DNA of 64,000 nucleotides from UHGV virus genome UHGV-1366123. One strand, given 5' to 3'. Below, piece after piece: positions 2,215 to 53,165 of the stretch. Source of the stretch: a virus. The notes beneath the pieces are model-generated. The model had not been told where the DNA came from. It was given only the letters and a program-made list of their open reading frames with translations, and searched no databases. How positions within the stretch are numbered: position 1 is the first letter of the stretch; each line of letters starts with the position of its first letter. Position numbers and translations under genes: made by a program.

Positions 2215-2655
2215 ATGGGATTTTTAAAGGCATTGAAGGATTTCGTGAACAAGAGAGGTGTTGTGAACACGAAAAGATCGTATGTTCACACAGATGATCT
2301 TCGTCTCAATCCTTCTTCTGAGCACCAAATATCAGAGGTCACAAAGTATGACATTGTACCTCATAACATGGTCGTGATAGCCACTCATGGAACTGGCTAC
2401 TTTGTACGTAGTGAAGATTGTCACACATACAAGGAAACAAACACGACGTGCTATGACTTCATACTTGAGAATCAATATGATGGATCGTTTGTGGATATCG
2501 TCATAAACTACGAAAGTGATGGAAATGGAGAAGGGAAGATCTGTAACATTTCCATGGCGTACGAATATGAAAACGACTCATCAATCGAAAACGTATCGAA
2601 AGATGAAGCGATAAAGTTTATGGCTTCATTCCTACAAAGAACTCTGCTATTATGA
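2215..2655 (+). CDS. hypothetical protein
   Basis: ORF only; its stop overlaps the first TATGACA iteron. Confidence 0.4.
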   Translation: MGFLKALKDFVNKRGVVNTKRSYVHTDDLRLNPSSEHQISEVTKYDIVPHNMVVIATHGTGYFVRSEDCHTYKETNTTCYDFILENQYDGSFVDIVINYESDGNGEGKICNISMAYEYENDSSIENVSKDEAIKFMASFLQRTLLL

Positions 2656-2835
2656 CAGAGTATGACACGAACGGATATGACAGACATATGACAAAGATGA
2701 CAGACGTATGACAAAGATGACAGACGTATGACAATTTTGTCATGACAACGATAATTTGGCACGATTTTTGTTATAATTATTATGAAAGATCGATCACTCG
2801 GATCAATCAACTTCAACCCAACATAAACAACAACA
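2651..2835 (+). promoter_or_regulatory. Iteron-plus-promoter cassette, copy A: about nine TGACA/TATGACA repeats at roughly 10-bp spacing, a TTGTCATGACAA palindrome, then a sigma70-like promoter (TTGGCA, ~16 nt, TATTAT)
   Basis: Direct reading; about 130 bp nearly identical to 49478-49641. Confidence 0.6.
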
Positions 2836-3516
2836 ATGACTATGACAACAACGGCAACCATACAAGACAAACTCGACAAGAACGTAGAGTTTGTTTGTTC
2901 ATTGTACAAGGCACGATTCGAAAAGTCGAAGGCTGTACAAGACGAATCGTTATACCACGTAACGTACACGATCACCTGTGAAGATTCCCACACTATCATC
3001 TTCCACGCAAACCTCTTTCCGAAAATGTTCGGGATGGTCATCAATGATCTACTGAATAATAATGAATCTTCAATGATCGTGGAGACACTTGAAAACGAAG
3101 ATGACTACGCAGAAAAAGTCGTGTCGACGCTTTCGGGTCTCATGTCTTACAAGAAATCAGAAGATGAAGAGGATCATTCTTCTGCAGACATGTACGACCT
3201 CGTAGGTTTTGCGGTTGGTGCAACAAAGAACGCCACGTGGGAACACAAATACGGAAAAGACGATATCAAGAAAACCTCATATGATCACTTCATCATCAAT
3301 ATCAACTATGAGGTGACAATGACTATCACACTTGAATATTGGGCAGATGGTCGTCCGTACGTTTCCGAAGTCGATATCCTCACGTTCACCGTACGTACTC
3401 TCAGTGGGACTTATGAGAAGAAGACACTCAACACTACGATATCGGACGCTATGCTTGAATCTGTCGATTTCATCAATCTTGCCAACAGGTTCTCGGGTGG
3501 TAGAATGATAAAATAG
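2836..3516 (+). CDS. hypothetical protein (downstream of iteron-promoter cassette A)
   Basis: ORF begins directly after the conserved leader; no motif recognised. Confidence 0.5.
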   Translation: MTMTTTATIQDKLDKNVEFVCSLYKARFEKSKAVQDESLYHVTYTITCEDSHTIIFHANLFPKMFGMVINDLLNNNESSMIVETLENEDDYAEKVVSTLSGLMSYKKSEDEEDHSSADMYDLVGFAVGATKNATWEHKYGKDDIKKTSYDHFIININYEVTMTITLEYWADGRPYVSEVDILTFTVRTLSGTYEKKTLNTTISDAMLESVDFINLANRFSGGRMIK

Positions 3517-11607: not shown

Positions 11608-11705
11608 GTCTCCGAACTCAAGGAAGGTACTTTCCTTGCACTCTGATGGTATTGGTGGTACTTACATAGCATCGAAGGCAAGAAAGCCCAAGGAAAAGGC
11701 AAAGA

Positions 11706-16883: not shown

Positions 16884-17360
16884 ATGCTTCAAAATCCTAA
16901 TCCGAATAACGTCAGAGGTTATAAACAAGGTTACTACATTCCAATCAATAAGGACAAGTTTGTTGGTCATTTGAATAAAGAAGGTGTTCCGTACAGATCA
17001 TCTTTGGAACTCAAGTTCATGAGACTTATTGATTCGAATCCGAATGTAGAAAAGTGGACATACGAACACCCCGACACAAAGATCTCATATTTCGATCCAA
17101 TGATGCAAAAACAGAGGACTTATTACCCAGATTTTTGGATGCAGATGAGAGTGAAGGGAGAACTTAAAACGTTCCTCATAGAAGTAAAACCCTACTCTCA
17201 AACCCAGATTCCGAAGAAATCTACAAGGAAATCGAAATCGACATATAGTAGAGAACTACAGACAAATCTGAATGTTGAAGTAAAGAGAAGATCTGCAGAA
17301 AAGTTCTGTGCAGAGAGAGGTTGGAAATATCTCTTTGTGACAGAGAAGTTCTTCAAGTGA
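16884..17360 (+). CDS. Head completion protein (T4 gp4-like, nuclease-like fold)
   Basis: SSLELKFMRLIDSNPNVEKW ... YYPDF ... LIEVKP ... AEKFCAERGW aligns block-for-block with T4 gp4. Confidence 0.65.
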   Translation: MLQNPNPNNVRGYKQGYYIPINKDKFVGHLNKEGVPYRSSLELKFMRLIDSNPNVEKWTYEHPDTKISYFDPMMQKQRTYYPDFWMQMRVKGELKTFLIEVKPYSQTQIPKKSTRKSKSTYSRELQTNLNVEVKRRSAEKFCAERGWKYLFVTEKFFK

Positions 17361-17386
17361 AGGATACCTCTTCTGATTAAAGAGAG

Positions 17387-17470
17387 GTACTTTCCTTGAG
17401 CTTGGAGGTACTTGGAGGTACTTTCACCCCACCGATAATTCTCGAATGCAAGGAAAGTACCTCTCTTTAA
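17387..17470. repeat. MITE-like hairpin element, 22-bp perfect TIRs TTAAAGAGAGGTACTTTCCTTG / CAAGGAAAGTACCTCTCTTTAA
   Basis: seen in sequence; family recurs at 10 or more loci. Confidence 0.7.
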
Positions 17471-19340: not shown

Positions 19341-20294
19341 TCATTTAGTCGTAGTTTGTTTCTTCTTGATGATCATTCTAAAATAAGTCTGCTCGCCATT
19401 CACAGACAAATATTTCCCGTCGTTTCCCCTTCTGGATGTCACAATCTCAAATTGTTGAGGATTGAATTTATACAAGAATGTTATCGGAACCCCCATGCAA
19501 CCATTGTAATCTCGTGGTATATCCTTGACCCTATCGACATTTATACCATCATAATTGTCGTATTTGGGATATTCATGTTCGTGTCCATAGTAGTTTTTTG
19601 TAAGCGGAATATCTTCATGTCGCATAGAGTGGTTCAAATTCGTAAACCACAGACAATTATTGGTGGGCGTGATCATATTACCAGATTCGTCCATCCATGT
19701 TTTTTTCATGTAGGGTTCATAATGGGCTGGTATGATAAACCCAGAAAATTCGTTCCCACGATTTACACCAAGCCATGCCTTACCATCTTGAACGGATTTG
19801 AAGATTTCTTTGTTGGTGATAGAATTGATATTCCCAATAATGAGAAAGAGCTTATCGTATCTGATCAGTTGTGTCATATATTCACGGAACAACGAAAATG
19901 GTGGATTTGTAACAACTATGTCAGATTGTTCCAGCAAATCGATACTTTCTTGACTACGAAAGTCGCCATCACCATTGAAGTAAACAACATCAGCTGTCTT
20001 TGGATCTGTATCGACGAGTTCTGTCCCTGTGTATTCAAAGAAAAAACCACGACTGTTTTCCTTATAACAAGATGCAATCACCTTCCGAAGTCCCAATTCT
20101 TTGAAATTGGAAACGAAGTATTTGAAAAAGTTACTCGTCAGAGGATCATCACAATTGCAATACACAACTTTCCCTTTAAAATGGCTTTCATAATGTCGCA
20201 ATTCTCTTTCGATATCAATAAGTTGCGTATAGAACTCGTCGTTCTTTTGCTTTCTAGCATTACGAAGTAACTTGCTGGTTGTTGCCCTTGCCAT
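19341..20294 (-). CDS. N6-adenine DNA methyltransferase, EcoRI-methylase family (orphan)
   Basis: N-terminus MARATTSKLL..KNDEFYTQ..VVYCNCDDP..SNFFKYF..LGL.K.IASCY closely parallels M.EcoRI; motif IV IVVTNPPF present; no restriction enzyme gene adjacent. Confidence 0.8.
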   Translation of the reverse strand: MARATTSKLLRNARKQKNDEFYTQLIDIERELRHYESHFKGKVVYCNCDDPLTSNFFKYFVSNFKELGLRKVIASCYKENSRGFFFEYTGTELVDTDPKTADVVYFNGDGDFRSQESIDLLEQSDIVVTNPPFSLFREYMTQLIRYDKLFLIIGNINSITNKEIFKSVQDGKAWLGVNRGNEFSGFIIPAHYEPYMKKTWMDESGNMITPTNNCLWFTNLNHSMRHEDIPLTKNYYGHEHEYPKYDNYDGINVDRVKDIPRDYNGCMGVPITFLYKFNPQQFEIVTSRRGNDGKYLSVNGEQTYFRMIIKKKQTTTK

Positions 20295-20419: not shown

Positions 20420-20595
20420 GTAGAAGCCTTATCGTATGTGAAAAATCTGCGTTTTATCCAGTTCTCACTTCTTGTTTCAACCTGCCATTACTTTTTAGGA
20501 ACACGAGGTTCGGTCATCCATAAGAGGGCAGTCCGCAAGCGTAAATTCGGTGCTACGAACACCTACTCGATTTTTTATATGTTAGACAGTTTGAA
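20420..20595 (-). ncRNA. Putative TnpB omega-RNA (reRNA) scaffold region at and beyond the 3' end of tnpB
   Basis: Inferred from IS200/IS605 biology; locally GC-rich, structured segment (GGAACACGAGGTTCGGTCATCC...GGTGCTACGAACACC) immediately 3' of the tnpB stop. Confidence 0.35.
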
Positions 20596-21724
20596 GTTTT
20601 CTTTGTCCTTCAATGAGAATGTTCTTCGAAGCGTTTATATCTCTGTCGTGATATTCACCACATTCGGGACAAGTCCAAAACCTATCACCGAGTTTCAAGT
20701 CTTTCTTCTTGTAACCACAACATAAACAAGTCTTTGAACTTGGATAGAACCTATTGATAAGAACAACTCGCTTATCATTCATAAGAGCCTTATATTGCAA
20801 TATCGACTTGAACCGATAAAATCCAGACTCTTGGATAGCATTCGCAAGATAACGATTTCCAAGCATCCCTTTAATATTCAAGTCTTCCATGAACACCACG
20901 TCGTATGATTTGAGGATCTCGTTCACAACTGAGTGGATGTAGTTCTCTTTCTTGTTCGTTATATTCGCAATCACTTTTGCAAGTCTGATTCTCTGTTTGT
21001 TCCTATTGTTTGAACCTTTGACCTTTCTGGATAGTTGACGATGAAGTCTTGTGATCTTCTTTTCCTCCTTCTTGAAGAAGTGTTTGTTTTCAAACACAAA
21101 TCCATCAGAGGTTATGACGAAATCTTTCACACCAAGATCAATACCGACTTGCTTGTTGGTCTTTTCAAACTTTACAAATTCTGCTTCGGGAATGTCGATA
21201 AGGATTGATAAGAAGAAATTCCCACTCTTGGTTTTCGAGAGAGTTGCACTTCTTATGTTATCTTTGTACTTCTGTAAGCGTTTGTGATACAAGTCAGAAC
21301 AACGGAATCTGAGTTTTTGAAGAGAAGTGATTAGTGTTATATGTTTCGTTTCGAAAGTGTTCCTCTTTGAAATAGCATTACGAGGAAACAATGCTGATTG
21401 TTTGTCTTTCTTTGATTTAAACTTTGGAAAGCCTTTATGATGATTGAAGAAGTTTTGATAAGCACCGACCATCTGTTTGATTGCTTGGTTCATCACCTTT
21501 GTGTTCTGTTCTCTCAACCAAGCATATTGTTCATCTTTCAACAATGATCCGTGGAAATATTTCGATAGATCGCTTTCGCTTAGGTTTGTCTTGTCCGTTT
21601 CATAAGCCTTTTGTTTTCTATCGAGCATGTGATTATAGACAAAACGATAAGCACCAAGAACCTTGTTGAGTTCTTGTTCCTGCGCTTTGTTTGGATATAA
21701 CCTTATTTTAATCGCTCTAAACAT
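20582..21724 (-). mobile_element. tnpB: TnpB (IS200/IS605 OrfB-family RNA-guided nuclease), intact, no tnpA present
   Basis: N-terminal IRLYPNKAQ..YRFVYNH; RuvC-I GIDLGVKD, RuvC-II FMEDLNIKGM, zinc finger CLCCG...CPECG, RuvC-III DRDINASKNIL; all catalytic residues present. Confidence 0.8.
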
Positions 21725-23230: not shown

Positions 23231-23370
23231 TAAACCATTGTTCTAAGCGAATCTCTTCAAGTGAATGATTAATCGCTTCGGTATTCTTATTGTGAATGTC
23301 AAGATATTAGTTTCAATGATAGTTACCAACAGCTATTGGAGATTATCAACAAATATTAGCAGTTCCCATG

Positions 23371-23446
23371 CCAAGAAGACCCCCCCCCGATGAATTGATT
23401 CTTTTTTATCAAAAAGAATCAATTCATCGGGGGGGGGTCTTCTTGG
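23371..23446. repeat. 76-bp perfect palindrome: 36-bp stem (CCAAGAAGA-C9-GATGAATTGATTCTTTTT) around a TATC loop, with C9/G9 homopolymer tracts
   Basis: seen in sequence; every position pairs. Confidence 0.9.
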
Positions 23447-23464
23447 AGATTATCGTTTATGGGT

Positions 23465-23520
23465 GAAGATTGAAGATTGAAGATTGAAGATTGAAGATTG
23501 AAGATTGAAGATTGGCTTCC
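23465..23520. repeat. Microsatellite (GAAGATT)x8
   Basis: seen in sequence. Confidence 0.95.
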
Positions 23521-23573
23521 GCATATTGAAGAAATGTGTTAAAGTGTATTATCAACTGATACGCTTTAAAGGA

Positions 23574-23657
23574 AGGTATTTTCCTTGCGCTCTGAGAGGT
23601 TCAAGAATATGAAAATAGCGGAGAATAGATCAGAGCGCAAGGAAAGTACCAAGGAAA
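23574..23657. repeat. MITE-like hairpin element copy (TIRs GGAAGGTATTTTCCTTGCGCTCTGA / TCAGAGCGCAAGGAAAGTACC; loop carries GAAAATAGCGGAG core)
   Basis: seen in sequence. Confidence 0.7.
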
Positions 23658-24060
23658 GCCAAGGAGACATATCCTTTGGAATGATGGGTTTCTGTCGGGA
23701 GACAATGACTATTTCCAAGGATTATGAGAAGACTATGACAATAATGGAGGACAATGGAAGATTATCAATGACTTGAAAGACAATGGTTGGAAAATGACTG
23801 ATTTTTAGAGGATTATCAGAGGACTATCTTTTGGAAAATGGTTGGTGATTATCGAATTAAAGGAAGGTACTTTCCTTGTCCTCGAAGCTATTCGAGAATA
23901 TGAAAATAGCGGAGACCATACTCGAGTTCAAGGAAAGTACCAAGGAAATCCAAGGAGACATATTTTCGAGGATTATGGTCTCTGTGGCTAATGGGAGGAA
24001 TATCTTGGAAAGAGAATATCAGTTTAAAGGTGTTAAAAGGTGTTAATCTGTTCGGGGATT
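23640..24060. repeat. Left iteron array: GACAATG / TGACAAT / GACTATGACAAT repeats (reverse complement of the right arrays)
   Basis: seen in sequence. Confidence 0.7.
23867..23941. repeat. MITE-like hairpin element copy
   Basis: TTAAAGGAAGGTACTTTCCTTG ... CAAGGAAAGTACC; loop GAGAATATGAAAATAGCGGAGACCATACTCGAG. Confidence 0.7.
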
Positions 24061-24070
24061 TAGTGAAGGT

Positions 24071-24170
24071 CTTTTTTAAAGTTTTACGCATGCGTTTTTT
24101 AAAGTTTTACGTGCGTGCGCTTTTTTTTGGAGTTTCACGCATGCGTTTTTTAAAGTTTCGCAACACGCAC
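24071..24170. repeat. Four tandem ~25-bp repeats TTTTTTAAAGTTTTACGCATGCG (each with a GCATGC or GCGTGC palindromic core); a fifth variant lies at 24376-24405
   Basis: seen in sequence. Confidence 0.85.
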
Positions 24171-24236
24171 CTGGTACTTTTGGTTTAAACTGGAGATTTA
24201 AAAACATGCGCACGACATGTTTCTGCGCTCAATGTA

Positions 24237-24289
24237 TGGTTTGGGGCAGCCTGGCTTGGCACTATCGTGCCAAGGCTGACCCCAAACCA
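24237..24289. repeat. Imperfect 26-bp palindrome TGGTTTGGGGCAGCCTGGCTTGGCAC-TATC-GTGCCAAGGCTGACCCCAAACCA, same TATC centre as the 36-bp palindrome
   Basis: seen in sequence. Confidence 0.8.
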
Positions 24290-24420
24290 GTTGTAAATAC
24301 TTTGTATTTACGATAAAACTGGAAAAAAATAACGCATGCGTATACGGGTATACACGGGAATTCGCGCGTTTTTTCAAAGTTTCGTGTATACGCACGGTTT
24401 GTCGGCAAATTCCGAGATTA

Positions 24421-24720
24421 GTCTGATTATCTTTCAATTTCAGTCTTTCAATTTTCAACTTTCCATTCAAAATCAGTTAACAATTCTTAACAATTCTCTG
24501 TTCTTGGAATGATTATCTTTCAATTTCAATCTTTCAATCTCTCTTTGAATAATCATCCATTGTCTTTCCAAGAATCATAGTCTTTCCAAGAATCATAAAT
24601 ATCTCGGGAATCATCAATGGTCTCTTTCAATTGTTCTGGTCTGTTCTGGGATTAAAAAGACTAATTTTGATTTTCAACTTTCCCTTTCCACAATAAAACC
24701 ATTTAGTGATTGTCTTTTGT
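24421..24720. repeat. AT-rich block of short direct repeats (TCTTTCAAT, TTCAATTTCA, TCTTTCCAAGAATCATA x2)
   Basis: seen in sequence. Confidence 0.7.
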
Positions 24721-24839
24721 CTTCAAAACGATTATCATTAAAGGGGCGGAAATCTATGATTCAGACAAAAGTCATCTTCTATTAACAAATCTTTAGAGAA
24801 TTCTTTCAATCTTTAGAGAAATTTTTCAAAGAGACTATG

Positions 24840-25017
24840 ACTTTTTCTATTGTCTTTGATAATCTTTTCACGATCCTCTATTGTCTTGGTGATTCTTTGA
24901 TGATCAGTCATTGTCTTTGATTATGGTTGATTGTCTTCCATAGTCTTCTGATAATCACTGACAATAGTCATTGTCTTCCGACAATCATACCACCATTCAA
25001 CAGAATACCTCTTCTGA
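24840..25017. repeat. Right iteron array 1: (A/C)(G)TCATTGTCTT(T/C) and GATTGTCTT repeats
   Basis: seen in sequence; three segmental copies follow. Confidence 0.75.
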
Positions 25018-25112
25018 TTACAGGAAGGTACTTTCCTTGCGCTCTGATCCATTTTCCGCTATTTCTATCCCACCGAATGTCTTCGAGGACAAGGAAAGTA
25101 CCTTCCTTTAAT
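25018..25112. repeat. MITE-like hairpin element copy with its loop inverted relative to the 23574 and 23867 copies
   Basis: TTACAGGAAGGTACTTTCCTTGCGCTCTGA ... TTCCGCTATTTC ... CAAGGAAAGTACCTTCCTTTAA. Confidence 0.7.
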
Positions 25113-25159
25113 TCAACCATTCTCAACCATTTTCTGGTAGATCATCTTCATAATCATTC

Positions 25160-25356
25160 AAAGAACCAGTTGTGAAGACGGTCATCATTGTCTTTCCATA
25201 ATCCTTTGATGGTCAGTCATTGTCTTTGATTGTTTTCCATAGTCAGTCATTGTCTTTGATTATGGTCGATTGTCTTTCCATAGTCTTCTCATAATCCTTC
25301 GAAATAGTCATTGTCTCCCGACAGAAACCCATAATCCTCGAGAATATGTCTCCTGA
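25160..25356. repeat. Right iteron array 2 (GTCATTGTCTTTGAT / GATTGTCTTTCCATAGTC units)
   Basis: seen in sequence. Confidence 0.75.
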
Positions 25357-25450
25357 TTACAGGAAGGTACTTTCCTTGAACTCGAGTATGGTCTCCGCTA
25401 TTTTCATATTCTTGAATATCTCAGAGCGCAAGGAAAGTACCTCGTCTTAA
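25357..25450. repeat. MITE-like hairpin element copy; loop is the inverted form of the 23867 copy
   Basis: loop AACTCGAGTATGGTCTCCGCTATTTTCATATTCT is the reverse complement of the 23867-copy loop. Confidence 0.7.
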
Positions 25451-25454
25451 TTAA

Positions 25455-25695
25455 TGAATCAGAACTATTGTCTCTTCATAGTCTTCTGATAATACTTCAA
25501 TAATCGTCCATTGTCTTTCAATAATCAGCCATTGTCTTCCGATTATGGTCGATTGTCTTTGATGATTGTTGATTGTCTTTGATGATTGTTGATTGTCTTC
25601 CATAATCAGTCATTATCTTGGATAGTCTTCCATAATCCTTCGAAATGGTCTATTGTCTTCGGATGATGACCCATAGTCCCCGAGAATACCTCTCC
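25455..25695. repeat. Right iteron array 3, including GATGATTGTTGATTGTCTTT x2
   Basis: seen in sequence. Confidence 0.75.
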
Positions 25696-25699
25696 TTGG

Positions 25700-25792
25700 C
25701 TCTCCTTGGTACTTTCCTTGCATTCTGATACACTTTCCGCTATTTTCATATTCTCGGGCTATTTCGAGGACAAGGAAAGTACCTCTCTTTAA
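25700..25792. repeat. MITE-like hairpin element copy
   Basis: CCTTGGTACTTTCCTTGCATTCTGA ... CAAGGAAAGTACCTCTCTTTAA. Confidence 0.65.
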
Positions 25793-25927
25793 TTCACAAC
25801 TCTGTGACCATTTCTCCAGCCAATTTTCTGATTATTGCTGGAAGGTCAATGTTTGGATACAGATGTGGGGAGAAGAAATCAAACTTCTCCCCACATTCTT
25901 CTTTTTGATTTGTAGGTTTCTTTTCTT

Positions 25928-38390: not shown

Positions 38391-38483
38391 CACGGAAGGC
38401 ACTTTCCTTGCGCTCTGAAGATTTCGGTGTTGTTCTCATAGCTCTTTGATATACAGAGCGCAAGGAAAGCACCTCGTCTTTAT
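38391..38483. repeat. MITE-like hairpin element copy abutting the truncated terminase ORF
   Basis: CACGGAAGGCACTTTCCTTGCGCTCTGA ... CAGAGCGCAAGGAAAGCACCTCGTCTTTAT. Confidence 0.7.
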
Positions 38484-43984: not shown

Positions 43985-44046
43985 TACTTTCCGCTATGAA
44001 ACTATTCTTCGATATCTTCGAGTGCAAGGAAAGTACCTCTCTTTAA
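43985..44046. repeat. MITE-like hairpin element, right half only (loop core TTCCGCTAT plus CAAGGAAAGTACCTCTCTTTAA)
   Basis: seen in sequence. Confidence 0.55.
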
Positions 44047-49477: not shown

Positions 49478-49641
49478 TATGACAGCGTATATGACACGAG
49501 TGACATGACAGAATATGACAAAGATGACAGAATATGACAACTTTGTCATGACAGTGATGATTTGGCACGATTTTTGTTATAATTATTATGAAAGATCACT
49601 CGGATCAATCAATCAACCCAACATAAACAACAATTCCAATC
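49478..49641 (+). promoter_or_regulatory. Iteron-plus-promoter cassette, copy B (about eight TATGACA/ATGACAG repeats, TTTGTCATGACA palindrome, sigma70-like TTGGCA-N16-TATTAT, conserved leader)
   Basis: about 130 bp at roughly 90% identity to 2687-2830. Confidence 0.6.
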
Positions 49642-53052: not shown

Positions 53053-53097
53053 GATGACCTCAAGAGAACCTCTCTCTTGAGGTCATCGCTTATTTGC
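53053..53097 (+). terminator. Terminator (15-bp stem GATGACCTCAAGAGA/TCTCTTGAGGTCATC)
   Basis: seen in sequence. Confidence 0.65.
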
Positions 53098-53165
53098 CCT
53101 ACTTTCATCCCAAAAGATTGATCAGAGAGCAAGGAAAGTACCTTCCTGTGATAAGGAAAGTATTC
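53095..53165. repeat. MITE-like hairpin element, degenerate or half copy (TCAGAGAGCAAGGAAAGTACCTTCC)
   Basis: seen in sequence. Confidence 0.5.

What the first reader, a model, noticed from the sequence alone, without database searches (positions are those of the whole stretch)
23560..25800. Large inverted-repeat architecture: opposed GACAAT/ATTGTC iteron arrays flanking GC-palindrome tandem repeats, a candidate origin or packaging/recombination locus
The left segment (23640-24060) carries repeated (G)ACAATG / GACTATGACAAT motifs. The right segments (24840-25017, 25160-25356, 25455-25695) carry three segmental copies of the reverse-complement CATTGTCTT arrays. Between them lie four tandem 25-bp repeats with GCATGC cores, further GTATAC/GCATGC palindromes, and an AT-rich block of short direct repeats. 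Iterons, an AT-rich block and GC palindromes together are the classic make-up of a replication origin or a pac/regulatory centre. The TGACAAT core also recurs in the iteron-promoter cassettes at 2.7 and 49.5 kb, which suggests one DNA-binding protein recognises all of them.
Basis: seen in the sequence. Interest (0 to 1): 0.7.

Follow-up and report, generated by a model that had tools for sequence, protein, structure and literature searches.

The report
Duplicated repeat-rich non-coding locus, probable origin
A 2.7-kb gene-free stretch of an uncultured T4-like phage is a conserved DNA structure: a hairpin-rich, easily melted centre flanked by opposed arrays of binding-site-like repeats. It occurs twice per genome, once next to the DNA polymerase gene, and is most likely a replication origin, but this is unproven.

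Summary

The ORF-free gap 23231-25927 holds five composite units, two on the left inverted against three on the right. Each unit is a helically phased (10.2-10.3 bp) array of ATWRTCTT motifs plus a 76-bp dyad module, GGTACTTTCCTTG-N50-CAAGGAAAGTACC.

The units flank a centre with T6AAAGTTT/alternating purine-pyrimidine repeats and three hairpins. Two of these are kept by strictly Watson-Crick compensatory changes. The centre also holds the least stable duplex of the 64-kb window. Part of it is ~99% identical in genomes whose flanking genes are ~88% identical.

Relatives (~150-kb phages) keep this architecture. They carry a second, inverted paralogous core-plus-arm ~69/81 kb away, abutting a split PolB gene.

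The 76-bp module is also dispersed, almost always between convergent gene ends, as REP/BIME elements are.

Best reading (confidence ~0.4): a DNA-level cis-acting locus, probably one of two replication origins. No initiator gene, DnaA boxes or functional data support this. A packaging site is unlikely. The proposed TGACAAT link to the cassettes at 2.7 and 49.5 kb is not supported.

The parts
23371..23446 (.). Perfect 36-bp-stem hairpin or palindrome with a 4-nt loop, the longest in the window
   Evidence: It is kept as a perfect 29-34-bp palindrome of different sequence in L001, L005, L007 and L009. It is absent in L048 and L052.
23464..23514 (.). Tandem heptamer (TGAAGAT) x7.3, a variable microsatellite
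   Evidence: It is replaced by (TTTAGTCAATC)x9 in L048.
23566..23690 (-). Left unit 1: 76-bp dyad module (arms 23575-23587 and 23638-23650) with conserved outer flank
23651..23856 (-). Left array 1 of GAYWAT (= ATWRTC on the - strand) motifs
   Evidence: 12 motifs across 23650-24020. Phasing here is not significant on its own.
23857..24020 (-). Left unit 2: module 23866-23941 plus a short array
24022..24170 (.). GTTAAAAGGT x2.5, then four T6AAAGTTT + alternating purine-pyrimidine (CGCATGCG-type) repeats of 23-26 bp
   Evidence: Copy number varies: 1 in L048, 3 in locus 2.
24186..24320 (.). Nearly invariant core: hp3 24202-24222, hp1 24238-24288, hp2 24293-24311, with invariant unpaired CTGCGCWCAATGTAT and CAGTT
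   Evidence: About 99% identity in five genomes. 6 pairs show double compensatory changes, no G-U occurs, and 95.9% of cells pair against 27-40% in slid controls. The DNA fold has z = -7.9.
24332..24396 (.). Purine-pyrimidine palindromes (ACGCATGCGTATACG ... CGTGTATACGCACG) with a GAATTC site at 24358-24363
24417..24867 (.). Least stable duplex of the whole window (candidate unwinding element): TCTTTCAAT-type short repeats and a 97%-conserved block 24700-24790 with the inverted repeat GTCTTTTGTCT / AGACAAAAGTC
24840..25113 (+). Right unit 1: phased ATWRTCTT array 24840-25010 plus module 25027-25102
25150..25452 (+). Right unit 2: array plus module 25366-25441
25460..25794 (+). Right unit 3: array with 20-21-bp iteron units plus module 25708-25783
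25862..25907 (+). Terminator-like hairpin with its T-run on the + strand, just before the stop codon of the convergent neck-protein-like gene
   Evidence: The hairpin is conserved in L001, L048 and L052. The T-run is conserved in L048 and L052 but not in L001.
17386..17461 (+). Dispersed copy of the 76-bp module, 26 nt after the stop of a TnsA-like nuclease gene and before a bidirectional terminator
38398..38473 (.). Dispersed module copy between convergent gene ends, with arms GGCAC / GCACC
11619..11700 (+). Degenerate dispersed module between convergent gene ends
43985..44037 (+). Half module (core plus one arm) between a terminator and a gene end
53095..53142 (+). Half module between a terminator and the ligase gene start

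Best explanation
The gap is a DNA-level cis-acting locus and most likely one of two replication origins of a ~150-kb T4-like phage.

Inferred mechanism:
1. An unidentified sequence-specific protein loads cooperatively on one face of the helix along the phased 10/20/21-bp ATWRTCTT iterons of the opposed arms.
2. The 76-bp dyad modules have two 13-bp sites exactly 63 bp (six turns) apart around a central TRYTTTCATA core. They close each unit as architectural sites.
3. The resulting wrapping or negative superhelical stress is taken up by the centre. There, cruciform-prone hairpins, Z-DNA-prone CG/CA tracts and the least stable duplex of the region favour strand opening and helicase/primase loading.

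Shown here: the anatomy, the phasing, the fixed spacing, the covariation, the conservation, the duplication and the genomic context.

Inferred only: protein binding, unwinding and initiation.
For: - The region is ORF-free, matches no Rfam family, and the σ70-promoter scan gave no more hits than shuffled sequence.
- The arms are opposed, strand-specific, helically phased arrays. The same phasing is seen in relatives and in locus 2. TRF finds 20-21-bp units, the classical iteron length.
- The least stable 100-bp and 200-bp duplexes of the 64-kb window lie between the hairpin core and the right array.
- The core is more conserved than coding DNA. Its hairpins are kept by Watson-Crick-only compensatory changes. 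Alternating purine-pyrimidine tracts cluster there.
- The architecture is conserved in every relative with at least 80% neck-protein identity that was read through the gap.
- A second, inverted paralogous core plus arm lies ~69/81 kb away. It sits ~270-300 bp from the start of a PolB fragment gene, between divergent genes, in at least 8 contigs.
- One genome lacks the locus-1 centre. This fits redundancy, although the locus-2 core could not be checked in that genome because its contig starts inside locus 2.
- T4 precedent: T4 has several origins, they lie near transcriptional divergence, and oriE carries evenly spaced 12-nt iterons (PMC3016281).
Against: - No Rep-like initiator, DnaA-box cluster or other known origin motif was found. 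Pfam and/or PHROGs scans of about 50 window ORFs show none.
- The best-characterised T4 origins (oriF, oriG) fire through promoter-primed R-loops, and no promoter of the phage's recognisable classes is present here.
- The 76-bp module is not specific to this locus. It sits at many convergent gene ends.
- The centre is missing in L001 and replaced by other GC palindromes in L052.
- The 61%-identical relative has no gap at this site.
- GC skew in the window tracks gene strand and shows no origin-type inflection.
- There are no replication, transcription or binding data.
Confidence: 0.4

Rival explanations
1. The locus has no dedicated function. It is a pile-up of a selfish or neutral dyad repeat (REP/BIME- or MITE-like) and its satellite arrays in a tolerant intergenic region, and it acts mainly as a recombination and plasticity hotspot.
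For: - The module is dispersed (78 distinct copies in the fetched loci) and clade-specific.
- Its halves are shuffled freely between copies.
- Unit number varies among relatives: 3+2, 3+1, 2+2.
- The centre is deleted in L001.
- Contig L026 joins locus 1 to the locus-2 flank, with the crossover inside a module.
- Many assemblies break here.
Against: - The core is ~99% conserved with covarying hairpins.
- The outward orientation of all units is kept in all genomes.
- Helical phasing is kept in diverged relatives and in locus 2.
- Module length is fixed at 76 bp although the interiors are unrelated.
- No transposase is associated, and the module is absent from 185,579 bacterial species genomes.
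Confidence: 0.15
2. The arms are transcribed outward as non-coding RNA. An RNA of about 1.1 kb would start at a σ70-like promoter near 24732-24760 and end at the 25862-25907 terminator. The repeated AUUGUCUU motifs would act as a protein sponge, or the core hairpins would act as a nut/put-like leader element present in two operons.
For: - The terminator-like hairpin has its T-run on the + strand at the outer end of an ORF-free arm.
- A conserved -10-like TATGAT/TATAAA lies in the 97%-conserved block.
- There are two paralogous hairpin cores per genome, each facing a long operon, as with nutL/nutR or putL/putR (my own knowledge).
- The hairpins covary.
Against: - No G-U pair occurs in 366 paired cells.
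- The palindromes are perfect and fold equally on both strands.
- The 10.2-10.3-bp phasing comes from mixed 10- and 11-bp spacings, which fits the DNA helix rather than an RNA need.
- No Rfam match.
- σ70-like sites are no more frequent than in shuffles.
Confidence: 0.12
3. The units are PeSL-like composite early promoter/stem-loop cassettes. The locus would be a cluster of tandem, outward-firing early promoters, each with an upstream curved or activator-binding array. These would drive the tRNA operon on the left and, in locus 2, the nucleotide-metabolism genes.
For: - A TA[T/C]-initial -10-like hexamer (TATTTT, TACTTT, TATGAA and the like) sits 17 bp from the arm-derived TTGNNN in 11 of the 12 interior families of the module.
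- Arrays always lie on the centre side of each module.
- The half module at 53.1 kb lies between a terminator and the ligase start.
- PeSLs are ~70-bp dispersed promoter-terminator cassettes of T4-type phages (PMC4122927).
Against: - Nearly all dispersed modules lie between convergent gene ends, not upstream of genes.
- The match to σ70 is weak, at most 8 of 12 positions, and the module is dyad-symmetric, so the geometry appears on both strands.
- The tRNA operon and locus-2 genes have their own TATAAGAA-like motifs.
- The right arm points into a convergent late gene.
Confidence: 0.12
4. It is a topology or architecture site. The dyad modules and arrays would bind a topoisomerase, gyrase or nucleoid-type protein, as with REP/BIME-gyrase, the pSC101 par locus or the Mu strong gyrase site. 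This would organise supercoiling or condensation without being an origin.
For: - Modules sit where convergent transcription accumulates positive supercoils.
- The arms are fixed six helical turns apart.
- The arrays are phased.
- Cruciform-prone, Z-DNA-prone and melt-prone DNA lies in between.
Against: No topoisomerase gene or binding data were examined. The comparison with the known systems rests on recalled knowledge only.
Confidence: 0.12
5. It is a packaging (pac) or terminus-generating site recognised by terminase.
For: - Opposed repeats around a central site resemble the P1 and SPP1 pac sites (my own knowledge).
- 3 of 5 near-complete contigs begin or end within about 1.5 kb of locus 1 or locus 2.
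Against: - There are two loci per genome.
- No terminase gene was recognised anywhere in the window.
- Contig ends fall inside repeated units. In the one case examined, the two ends of the contig lie in neighbouring R units, as expected for an assembly break of a circular map at a repeat.
- T4-type phages package by headful without a strict pac site (my own knowledge).
Confidence: 0.04

Closest known systems
Iteron-type origins (phage lambda ori, plasmids R6K/P1/F, and T4 oriE with its evenly spaced 12-nt repeats)
   Same: Directly repeated, helically phased 10/20-21-bp units lie next to the least stable duplex of the region. The locus is non-coding. There is more than one such locus per genome, as in T4, and it lies near transcriptional divergence (PMC3016281).
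   Different: - It has far more repeats (about 40 motifs), in two opposed arms built of 290-340-bp composite units.
- Each unit ends in a 76-bp dyad module.
- The core is rich in cruciform- and Z-DNA-prone sequence.
- No cognate Rep gene and no DnaA or IHF sites were found.
PeSL promoter-terminator cassettes of T4-type phages (Arbiol 2010; Comeau 2014, PMC4122927)
   Same: Both are ~70-bp conserved repeats dispersed in intergenic regions of T4-like genomes. Both contain a stem-loop and TTG-N17-TA geometry and are associated with rearrangements.
   Different: PeSLs sit upstream of early genes and have near-consensus σ70 boxes, a Shine-Dalgarno sequence and a start codon. These modules are dyad-symmetric, lie between convergent gene ends, match σ70 poorly, and are clustered with phased arrays at two special loci.
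Bacterial REP/BIME (RIB/RIP), ERIC and Correia elements
   Same: All are imperfect palindromic extragenic repeats placed after stop codons and between convergent genes. Here two inverted arms flank a central conserved motif, like REP-L-REP in RIB/RIP elements (my own knowledge).
   Different: These modules are phage-borne and absent from the bacterial genomes searched. No RAYT transposase is associated. The length is a strict 76 bp. They are combined with iteron arrays.
HSV oriL/oriS, SV40 and other palindromic viral origins
   Same: Dyad symmetry around an AT-rich or hairpin centre, with inverted initiator-site clusters on both sides.
   Different: The scale differs (2.3 kb against 0.1-0.2 kb), the arms are unequal (2 against 3 units), and there is no known origin-binding protein.

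Membership tests
Iteron-type replication origin | Three or more direct repeats of 17-22 bp (or half-units) in helical phase | tested here: met
   TRF finds periods of 20 and 21 bp. ATWRTC spacings cluster at 10/11/20/21/30/31 bp, and the Fourier peak at 10.2-10.3 bp is reached by 0 of 300 random placements.
Iteron-type replication origin | Adjacent AT-rich DNA unwinding element | tested here: met
   The least stable 100-bp and 200-bp duplexes of the 64-kb window are 24768-24867 and 24651-24850, abutting right array 1. Actual unwinding was not tested.
Iteron-type replication origin | Cognate initiator (Rep) gene nearby, or host initiator sites (DnaA boxes) | tested here: not met
   No Rep-like family appears in the window ORFs scanned with Pfam or PHROGs. 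DnaA-box-like 9-mers are not clustered in the gap. Many ORFs have no family, so an unrecognised initiator is not excluded.
Iteron-type replication origin | Replication initiates there | not testable with these tools
   This needs marker-frequency analysis, 2-D gels or a plasmid ori assay.
T4 R-loop origin (oriF/oriG type) | A promoter transcribing into a downstream unwinding element | tested here: inconclusive
   Neither recognisable promoter class of this phage (TAAATAACGAAA, TATAAGAAA) is in the gap. Only weak σ70-like sites at 24710-24760 point from the conserved block toward the right arm.
pac/cos packaging site | Single site per genome, next to or inside the terminase genes | tested here: not met
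   There are two paralogous loci per genome. No terminase was recognised in the window.
PeSL cassette | Dispersed ~70-bp conserved intergenic repeat with a stem-loop | tested here: met
   72 of 78 distinct copies are exactly 76 bp, and the element is dispersed in intergenic gaps of every genome of the clade.
PeSL cassette | σ70-like early promoter followed by a Shine-Dalgarno sequence and the start codon of a downstream gene | tested here: not met
   Dispersed copies lie between convergent gene ends, 15-27 nt after a stop codon. The promoter match is at most 8 of 12 positions and is symmetric on both strands.
REP/BIME-like extragenic palindromes | Imperfect palindrome in extragenic DNA at 3' ends or between convergent genes, in many copies | tested here: met
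REP/BIME-like extragenic palindromes | Associated RAYT (Y1 HUH) transposase; gyrase or IHF binding | tested here: inconclusive
   No Y1 transposase appears in the window. Only TnpB and a TnsA-like nuclease whose gene abuts one module were found. Binding cannot be tested here.
Structured non-coding RNA | Match to a known family, or covariation including G-U pairs with a defined promoter and terminator | tested here: inconclusive
   No Rfam family matches. Covariation is present but only Watson-Crick, with 0 G-U in 366 cells. The structures are equally stable on both strands.

The most novel reading that the evidence does not exclude
This is a previously undescribed phage chromosome-architecture system. 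A clade-specific 76-bp dyad element (two 13-bp sites six helical turns apart) would mark convergent-transcription zones genome-wide. At two inverted loci roughly opposite each other on the map, it would be combined with helically phased iteron arms. Together these would form a nucleoprotein machine that drives supercoil-dependent cruciform, Z-DNA and melting transitions in a conserved core. The system would serve at once as origin and as topological or recombination organiser, possibly flipping the ~69-kb segment between the loci.
Probability: 0.15. Interest if true: 0.8.

Novelty: new variant of a known kind. Interest (0 to 1): 0.6.

Why it matters
Origins and other cis-acting DNA sites are almost unknown for uncultured large phages. 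Even in T4 the role of the oriE iterons remains unsettled.

This locus gives a sharply defined and testable candidate. It is conserved and duplicated, and its separable parts are the iteron arms, the dyad modules, the covarying hairpin core and the melt-prone block.

It also defines a new dispersed repeat family in a phage clade. That family explains why assemblies of these genomes break, and it may drive rearrangements. If the origin reading holds, the locus offers a handle for replication-based host assignment (peak-to-trough ratios) and for engineering these phages.

Tried and rejected
- **Known RNA families:** Rfam at gathering and E-value thresholds gave only spurious miRNA-like hits on the hairpins.
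- **Nucleotide similarity:** no match to 50,697 phage records or 72,556 plasmids.
- **Module in bacteria:** the module pattern gave no hit in 185,579 bacterial and archaeal genomes.
- **Module as one long RNA hairpin:** rejected. Complementarity of the flanks and inner segments is no better than for shuffled halves.
- **Module as a Bacteroidota-type promoter:** TAnnTTTG is under-represented in the window, and TAYTTTCA is not a general upstream motif.
- **σ70 promoters:** no more sites in the gap than in shuffles.
- **DnaA boxes:** none clustered.
- **Shared motif with the cassettes at 2.7 and 49.5 kb:** rejected.
- **Protein coding:** the 10-bp periodicity and indels of 1 and 4 nt between relatives exclude conserved ORFs.
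- **Distant relatives:** the 42%-identical relative's 1.2-kb gap (L051) has no comparable repeats. The 61% relative has no gap at this site.
- **More diverged cores:** a metagenome scan with the invariant 21-mer found only the same clade plus one chance hit.
- **Host:** the TnpB search gave only a weak clue, 64-66% identity to a Prevotella sp. CAG:1092 scaffold and a Mycoplasmatota MAG.
Full report
**Context.** The window comes from a distant T4-like myovirus.
- Recognised genes include a clamp loader, prohead protease, capsid-like protein, UvsX, a gp41-like helicase, gp47/gp46-like SbcCD and an NAD-dependent ligase.
- There are two tRNA clusters and a TnpB gene.
- No nucleotide similarity was found to 50,697 phage records.
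- The finding lies in a 2.7-kb ORF-free gap, 23231-25927. On its left is tRNA-Lys, the first gene of a - strand operon that runs down to a terminator at 17.55 kb. On its right is the 3' end of a - strand gene of about 550 aa. The only annotated relative of that gene is a 'neck protein' of Tenacibaculum phage PTm1.

**Checking the observation.** The described repeats are there and are far beyond chance.
- The left part is an inverted repeat of each of three right-hand segments, with arms of 76-143 nt at 74-91% complementarity.
- The motif ATWRTC (core ATTGTCTT) occurs 41 times on the + strand in 24540-25700. Its complement occurs 12 times in 23650-24020. Elsewhere the density is 1.4-1.9 per kb.
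- Motif spacings cluster at 10/11, 20/21, 30/31 bp and so on. The period is 10.2-10.3 bp in each right unit, and no random placement of the motifs reaches the observed power. TRF also reports 20- and 21-bp units. The phasing is that of the DNA helix and is built from mixed 10- and 11-bp steps.
- The four T6AAAGTTT + CGCATGCG-type repeats (24072-24170), the GTATAC/GCATGC palindromes and the AT-rich block are confirmed.
- 6 of the 16 GC-rich alternating purine-pyrimidine runs of the window lie within 312 bp of the centre.
- The least stable 100-bp and 200-bp duplexes of the whole 64 kb are 24768-24867 and 24651-24850.

The sub-claim that TGACAAT links this locus to the cassettes at 2.7 and 49.5 kb fails. 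Those cassettes are arrays of TATGACA upstream of a σ54-like TTGGCACG-N4-TTGT. TATGACA occurs once in the gap and TGACAAT twice.

- Each arm is built of composite units of 290-340 bp, two on the left and three on the right.
- Each unit ends, on the side away from the centre, in a 76-bp dyad module: GGTACTTTCCTTG-N50-CAAGGAAAGTACC. The arm 13-mer gives 20 hits at two or fewer mismatches against 1.1 expected.
- Outside the arms lie a perfect 36-bp-stem hairpin (23371-23446), a (TGAAGAT)x7 microsatellite, and on the right a terminator-like hairpin with its T-run on the + strand.

**The module.**
- Across the window and fetched loci there are 78 distinct copies, and 72 are exactly 76 bp. This holds even though the 50-bp interiors fall into about 12 unrelated families.
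- Only the arms and a central TRYTTTCATA core, placed exactly on the dyad, are shared.
- Complementarity just outside and just inside the arms is no better than when halves are shuffled between copies. Inner segments score 4.54 against 4.53 bp of 8, and outer flanks score below the shuffled value. A long RNA hairpin is therefore not what is conserved.
- What is conserved is two 13-bp sites 63 bp apart (six helical turns) around a central core. This points to recognition on duplex DNA.
- The module also occurs outside the locus, at 17.4, 38.4 and 11.6 kb, with half copies at 44.0 and 53.1 kb. In relatives there are roughly 10-15 copies per genome.
- These dispersed copies almost always lie between convergent gene ends, 15-27 nt after one stop codon and beside a bidirectional terminator. 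That placement is like REP/BIME or ERIC elements and unlike promoters.
- The module is confined to this phage clade in IMG/VR and is absent from 185,579 bacterial and archaeal genomes.

**Comparative evidence for locus 1.**
- Relatives are phage contigs of about 145-150 kb from metagenomes.
- The layout 'three units, centre, two inverted units', with all units facing outward, recurs in L003, L005, L007 and L009.
- L048, whose neck protein is 80% identical, has 3+1 units.
- L052 (86% identical) has 2+2 units, and its centre is replaced by other GC-rich palindromes followed by a comparable AT-rich repeat block.
- L001 lacks the ~1.1-kb centre and has a 150-bp spacer instead.
- A 61%-identical relative has no gap at this site. 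A 42%-identical relative has an unrelated 1.2-kb gap.

**Conservation of the core.**
- Positions 24186-24385 are ~99% identical in five genomes whose flanking genes are ~88% identical.
- The core holds three hairpins: hp3 24202-24222, hp1 24238-24288 and hp2 24293-24311. They are separated by invariant unpaired sequence, CTGCGCWCAATGTAT and CAGTT.
- On 13 distinct sequences, hp1 and hp2 show 6 pairs with changes on both sides, no pair that changes on one side only, and no G-U in 366 cells. Pairing is 95.9% against 27-40% when partners are slid.
- hp3 is kept in structure but not in sequence or register.
- The long outer hairpin is likewise a perfect palindrome of different sequence in four relatives.
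- Strict Watson-Crick symmetry, equal folding on both strands, helical phasing and fixed spacing together argue for function at the DNA level rather than in an RNA.

**A second locus.**
- The same genomes carry a paralogous core of about 72% identity, with compensated hairpins, roughly 69/81 kb away on the ~150-kb map. It is in inverted orientation relative to locus 1 in all three genomes where both are seen.
- Locus 2 has the T6AAAGTTT/purine-pyrimidine repeats, the three hairpins and one arm of phased arrays with two or three outward-facing modules.
- It lies between divergent genes. On one side, ~270-300 bp from the core, is a 400-aa C-terminal fragment of a family-B DNA polymerase. On the other side are a 185-aa ORF and a guanylate kinase gene. 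This arrangement holds in at least eight contigs.
- Locus 1 is also close to a switch of transcription direction. Genes from 17.5 to 23.2 kb are on the - strand, and those from 29 to 38 kb are mostly on the + strand.

**Interpretation.** The best single reading is a DNA-level cis-acting nucleoprotein locus, probably one of two replication origins. Support comes from:
- the triad of phased iterons, the most melt-prone DNA of the region, and supercoil-responsive palindromes and purine-pyrimidine tracts;
- conservation stronger than in coding DNA;
- duplication on roughly opposite sides of the map, once beside the polymerase gene;
- loss of one centre in one genome, which a second locus could cover, although the locus-2 core was not seen in that genome;
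- the T4 precedents of several origins, origins near transcriptional divergence, and iterons at oriE (PMC3016281).

Against it:
- no initiator gene or DnaA-box cluster was found;
- no promoter of the phage's recognisable classes, TAAATAACGAAA and TATAAGAAA, points into the melt-prone block, as a T4 R-loop origin would need;
- the module is not origin-specific;
- no functional data exist.

I put this reading at about 0.4.

**Rivals.**
- *A functionless repeat pile-up or recombination hotspot.* Unit-number variation, the L001 deletion and contig L026 favour it. In L026 the left arm, centre and first right unit of locus 1 are joined, inside a module, to the locus-2 flank. This is either an inversion isomer or a chimeric assembly. 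The conserved and covarying core, the conserved orientation and the phasing count against it.
- *Outward non-coding transcription of the arms, or a nut/put-like RNA.* The + strand terminator-like hairpin and a conserved -10-like TATGAT at 24755-24760 favour it. The Watson-Crick-only covariation and the helical phasing count against it.
- *PeSL-like early promoter cassettes* (PMC4122927). The TTG-N17-TAY geometry favours it. The placement at convergent gene ends contradicts it.
- *A topology or architecture site.* This rests on analogy only.
- *A packaging site.* This is unlikely, given two loci and no terminase nearby. Contig ends fall inside repeated units, which looks like assembly breakage.

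**Comparison with known systems and novelty.** The locus works most like an iteron-type origin, and its dispersed element most like REP/BIME or PeSL repeats. It fails at least one defining feature of each family:
- iteron-type origin: no Rep gene or DnaA sites;
- PeSL: not upstream of genes;
- REP/BIME: no RAYT transposase.

I therefore class it as a new variant of a known kind, not as a member of any of these families. No similar locus was found in the phage, plasmid or bacterial collections searched.

**Verdict.** The structure is real, elaborate and conserved. Its function is unproven.

Noticed in passing
window 2651-2790 and 49478-49600: Two near-identical cassettes. Each has 4-6 TATGACA repeats at 10-20-bp spacing, then an inverted TTGTCATGACA, then TTGGCACGATTTTTGTT. 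The last is a close match to the σ54 -24/-12 consensus (TGGCACG-N4-TTGC). One cassette is upstream of ORF 2836-3516 and the other lies between divergent ORFs 48713(-) and 49642(+). They look like enhancer-dependent promoters in a phage.
   Followed up: partly
window, 15-30 nt upstream of many ATGs (e.g. 6352, 13124, 13672, 40397, 44043(-), 47691, 51204, 55271): A recurrent TAAATAACGAAA / TAAATAAGCAAA motif lies before structural genes and is probably the late promoter, in the style of T4's TATAAATA. A second class, TATAAGAAA, lies before replication and recombination genes (8106, 30291, 35583, 37922, 62879).
   Followed up: partly
L043 1829-3031 (and L031, L059, L061, L063, L064, L065, L067): The family-B DNA polymerase is split. 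A 400-aa ORF matching only the C-terminal half (PHROG 262 positions 484-841 of 856) starts ~270-300 bp from the locus-2 core. The N-terminal part is not adjacent.
   Followed up: partly
L026 1-2335 (IMGVR_UViG_3300006245_000049): This contig joins the left arm, centre and first right unit of locus 1 to the locus-2 flank (185-aa ORF). The crossover is inside a 76-bp module. It is either an inversion isomer produced by recombination between the inverted loci or a chimeric assembly.
   Followed up: partly
window 23371-23446: This is the longest perfect hairpin in the window (36-bp stem, 4-nt loop), between the left arm and tRNA-Lys. In four relatives it remains a perfect palindrome although 5-10 positions per arm differ. 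That suggests maintenance at the DNA level (template switching) or a strong structural requirement. Its function is unknown.
   Followed up: partly
window 20582-21724 (-): A full-length TnpB (IS605 OrfB / Cas12f-like) gene sits inside the phage tRNA operon with no TnpA. Its best bacterial relatives are only 64-66% identical (a Prevotella sp. CAG:1092 scaffold and a Mycoplasmatota MAG). This is a weak host clue. The ωRNA region was not examined.
   Followed up: partly
window 16884-17360 and 17386-17461: A 158-aa TnsA-like (PD-(D/E)xK) nuclease gene is followed 26 nt later by a 76-bp module. The adjacency is conserved in relatives (L011, L019, L021, L022, L037). The nuclease may be linked to the module, but this was not tested.
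   Followed up: no
window 19341-20294 (-) and 24358-24363: The phage encodes an EcoRI-type adenine methyltransferase (Pfam E = 1.7e-116). A GAATTC site lies in the centre beside the hairpin core, and another lies in the locus-2 centre. Genome-wide GAATTC usage was not checked.
   Followed up: no
window 23464-23514; L048 11390-11480: The microsatellite next to the left arm differs completely between relatives: (TGAAGAT)x7 here and (TTTAGTCAATC)x9 in L048.
   Followed up: no
L051 10552-11740: The 42%-identity relative has an unrelated 1.2-kb non-coding gap upstream of nrdD. It has no Rfam match and no repeat arrays, and its nature is unknown.
   Followed up: partly
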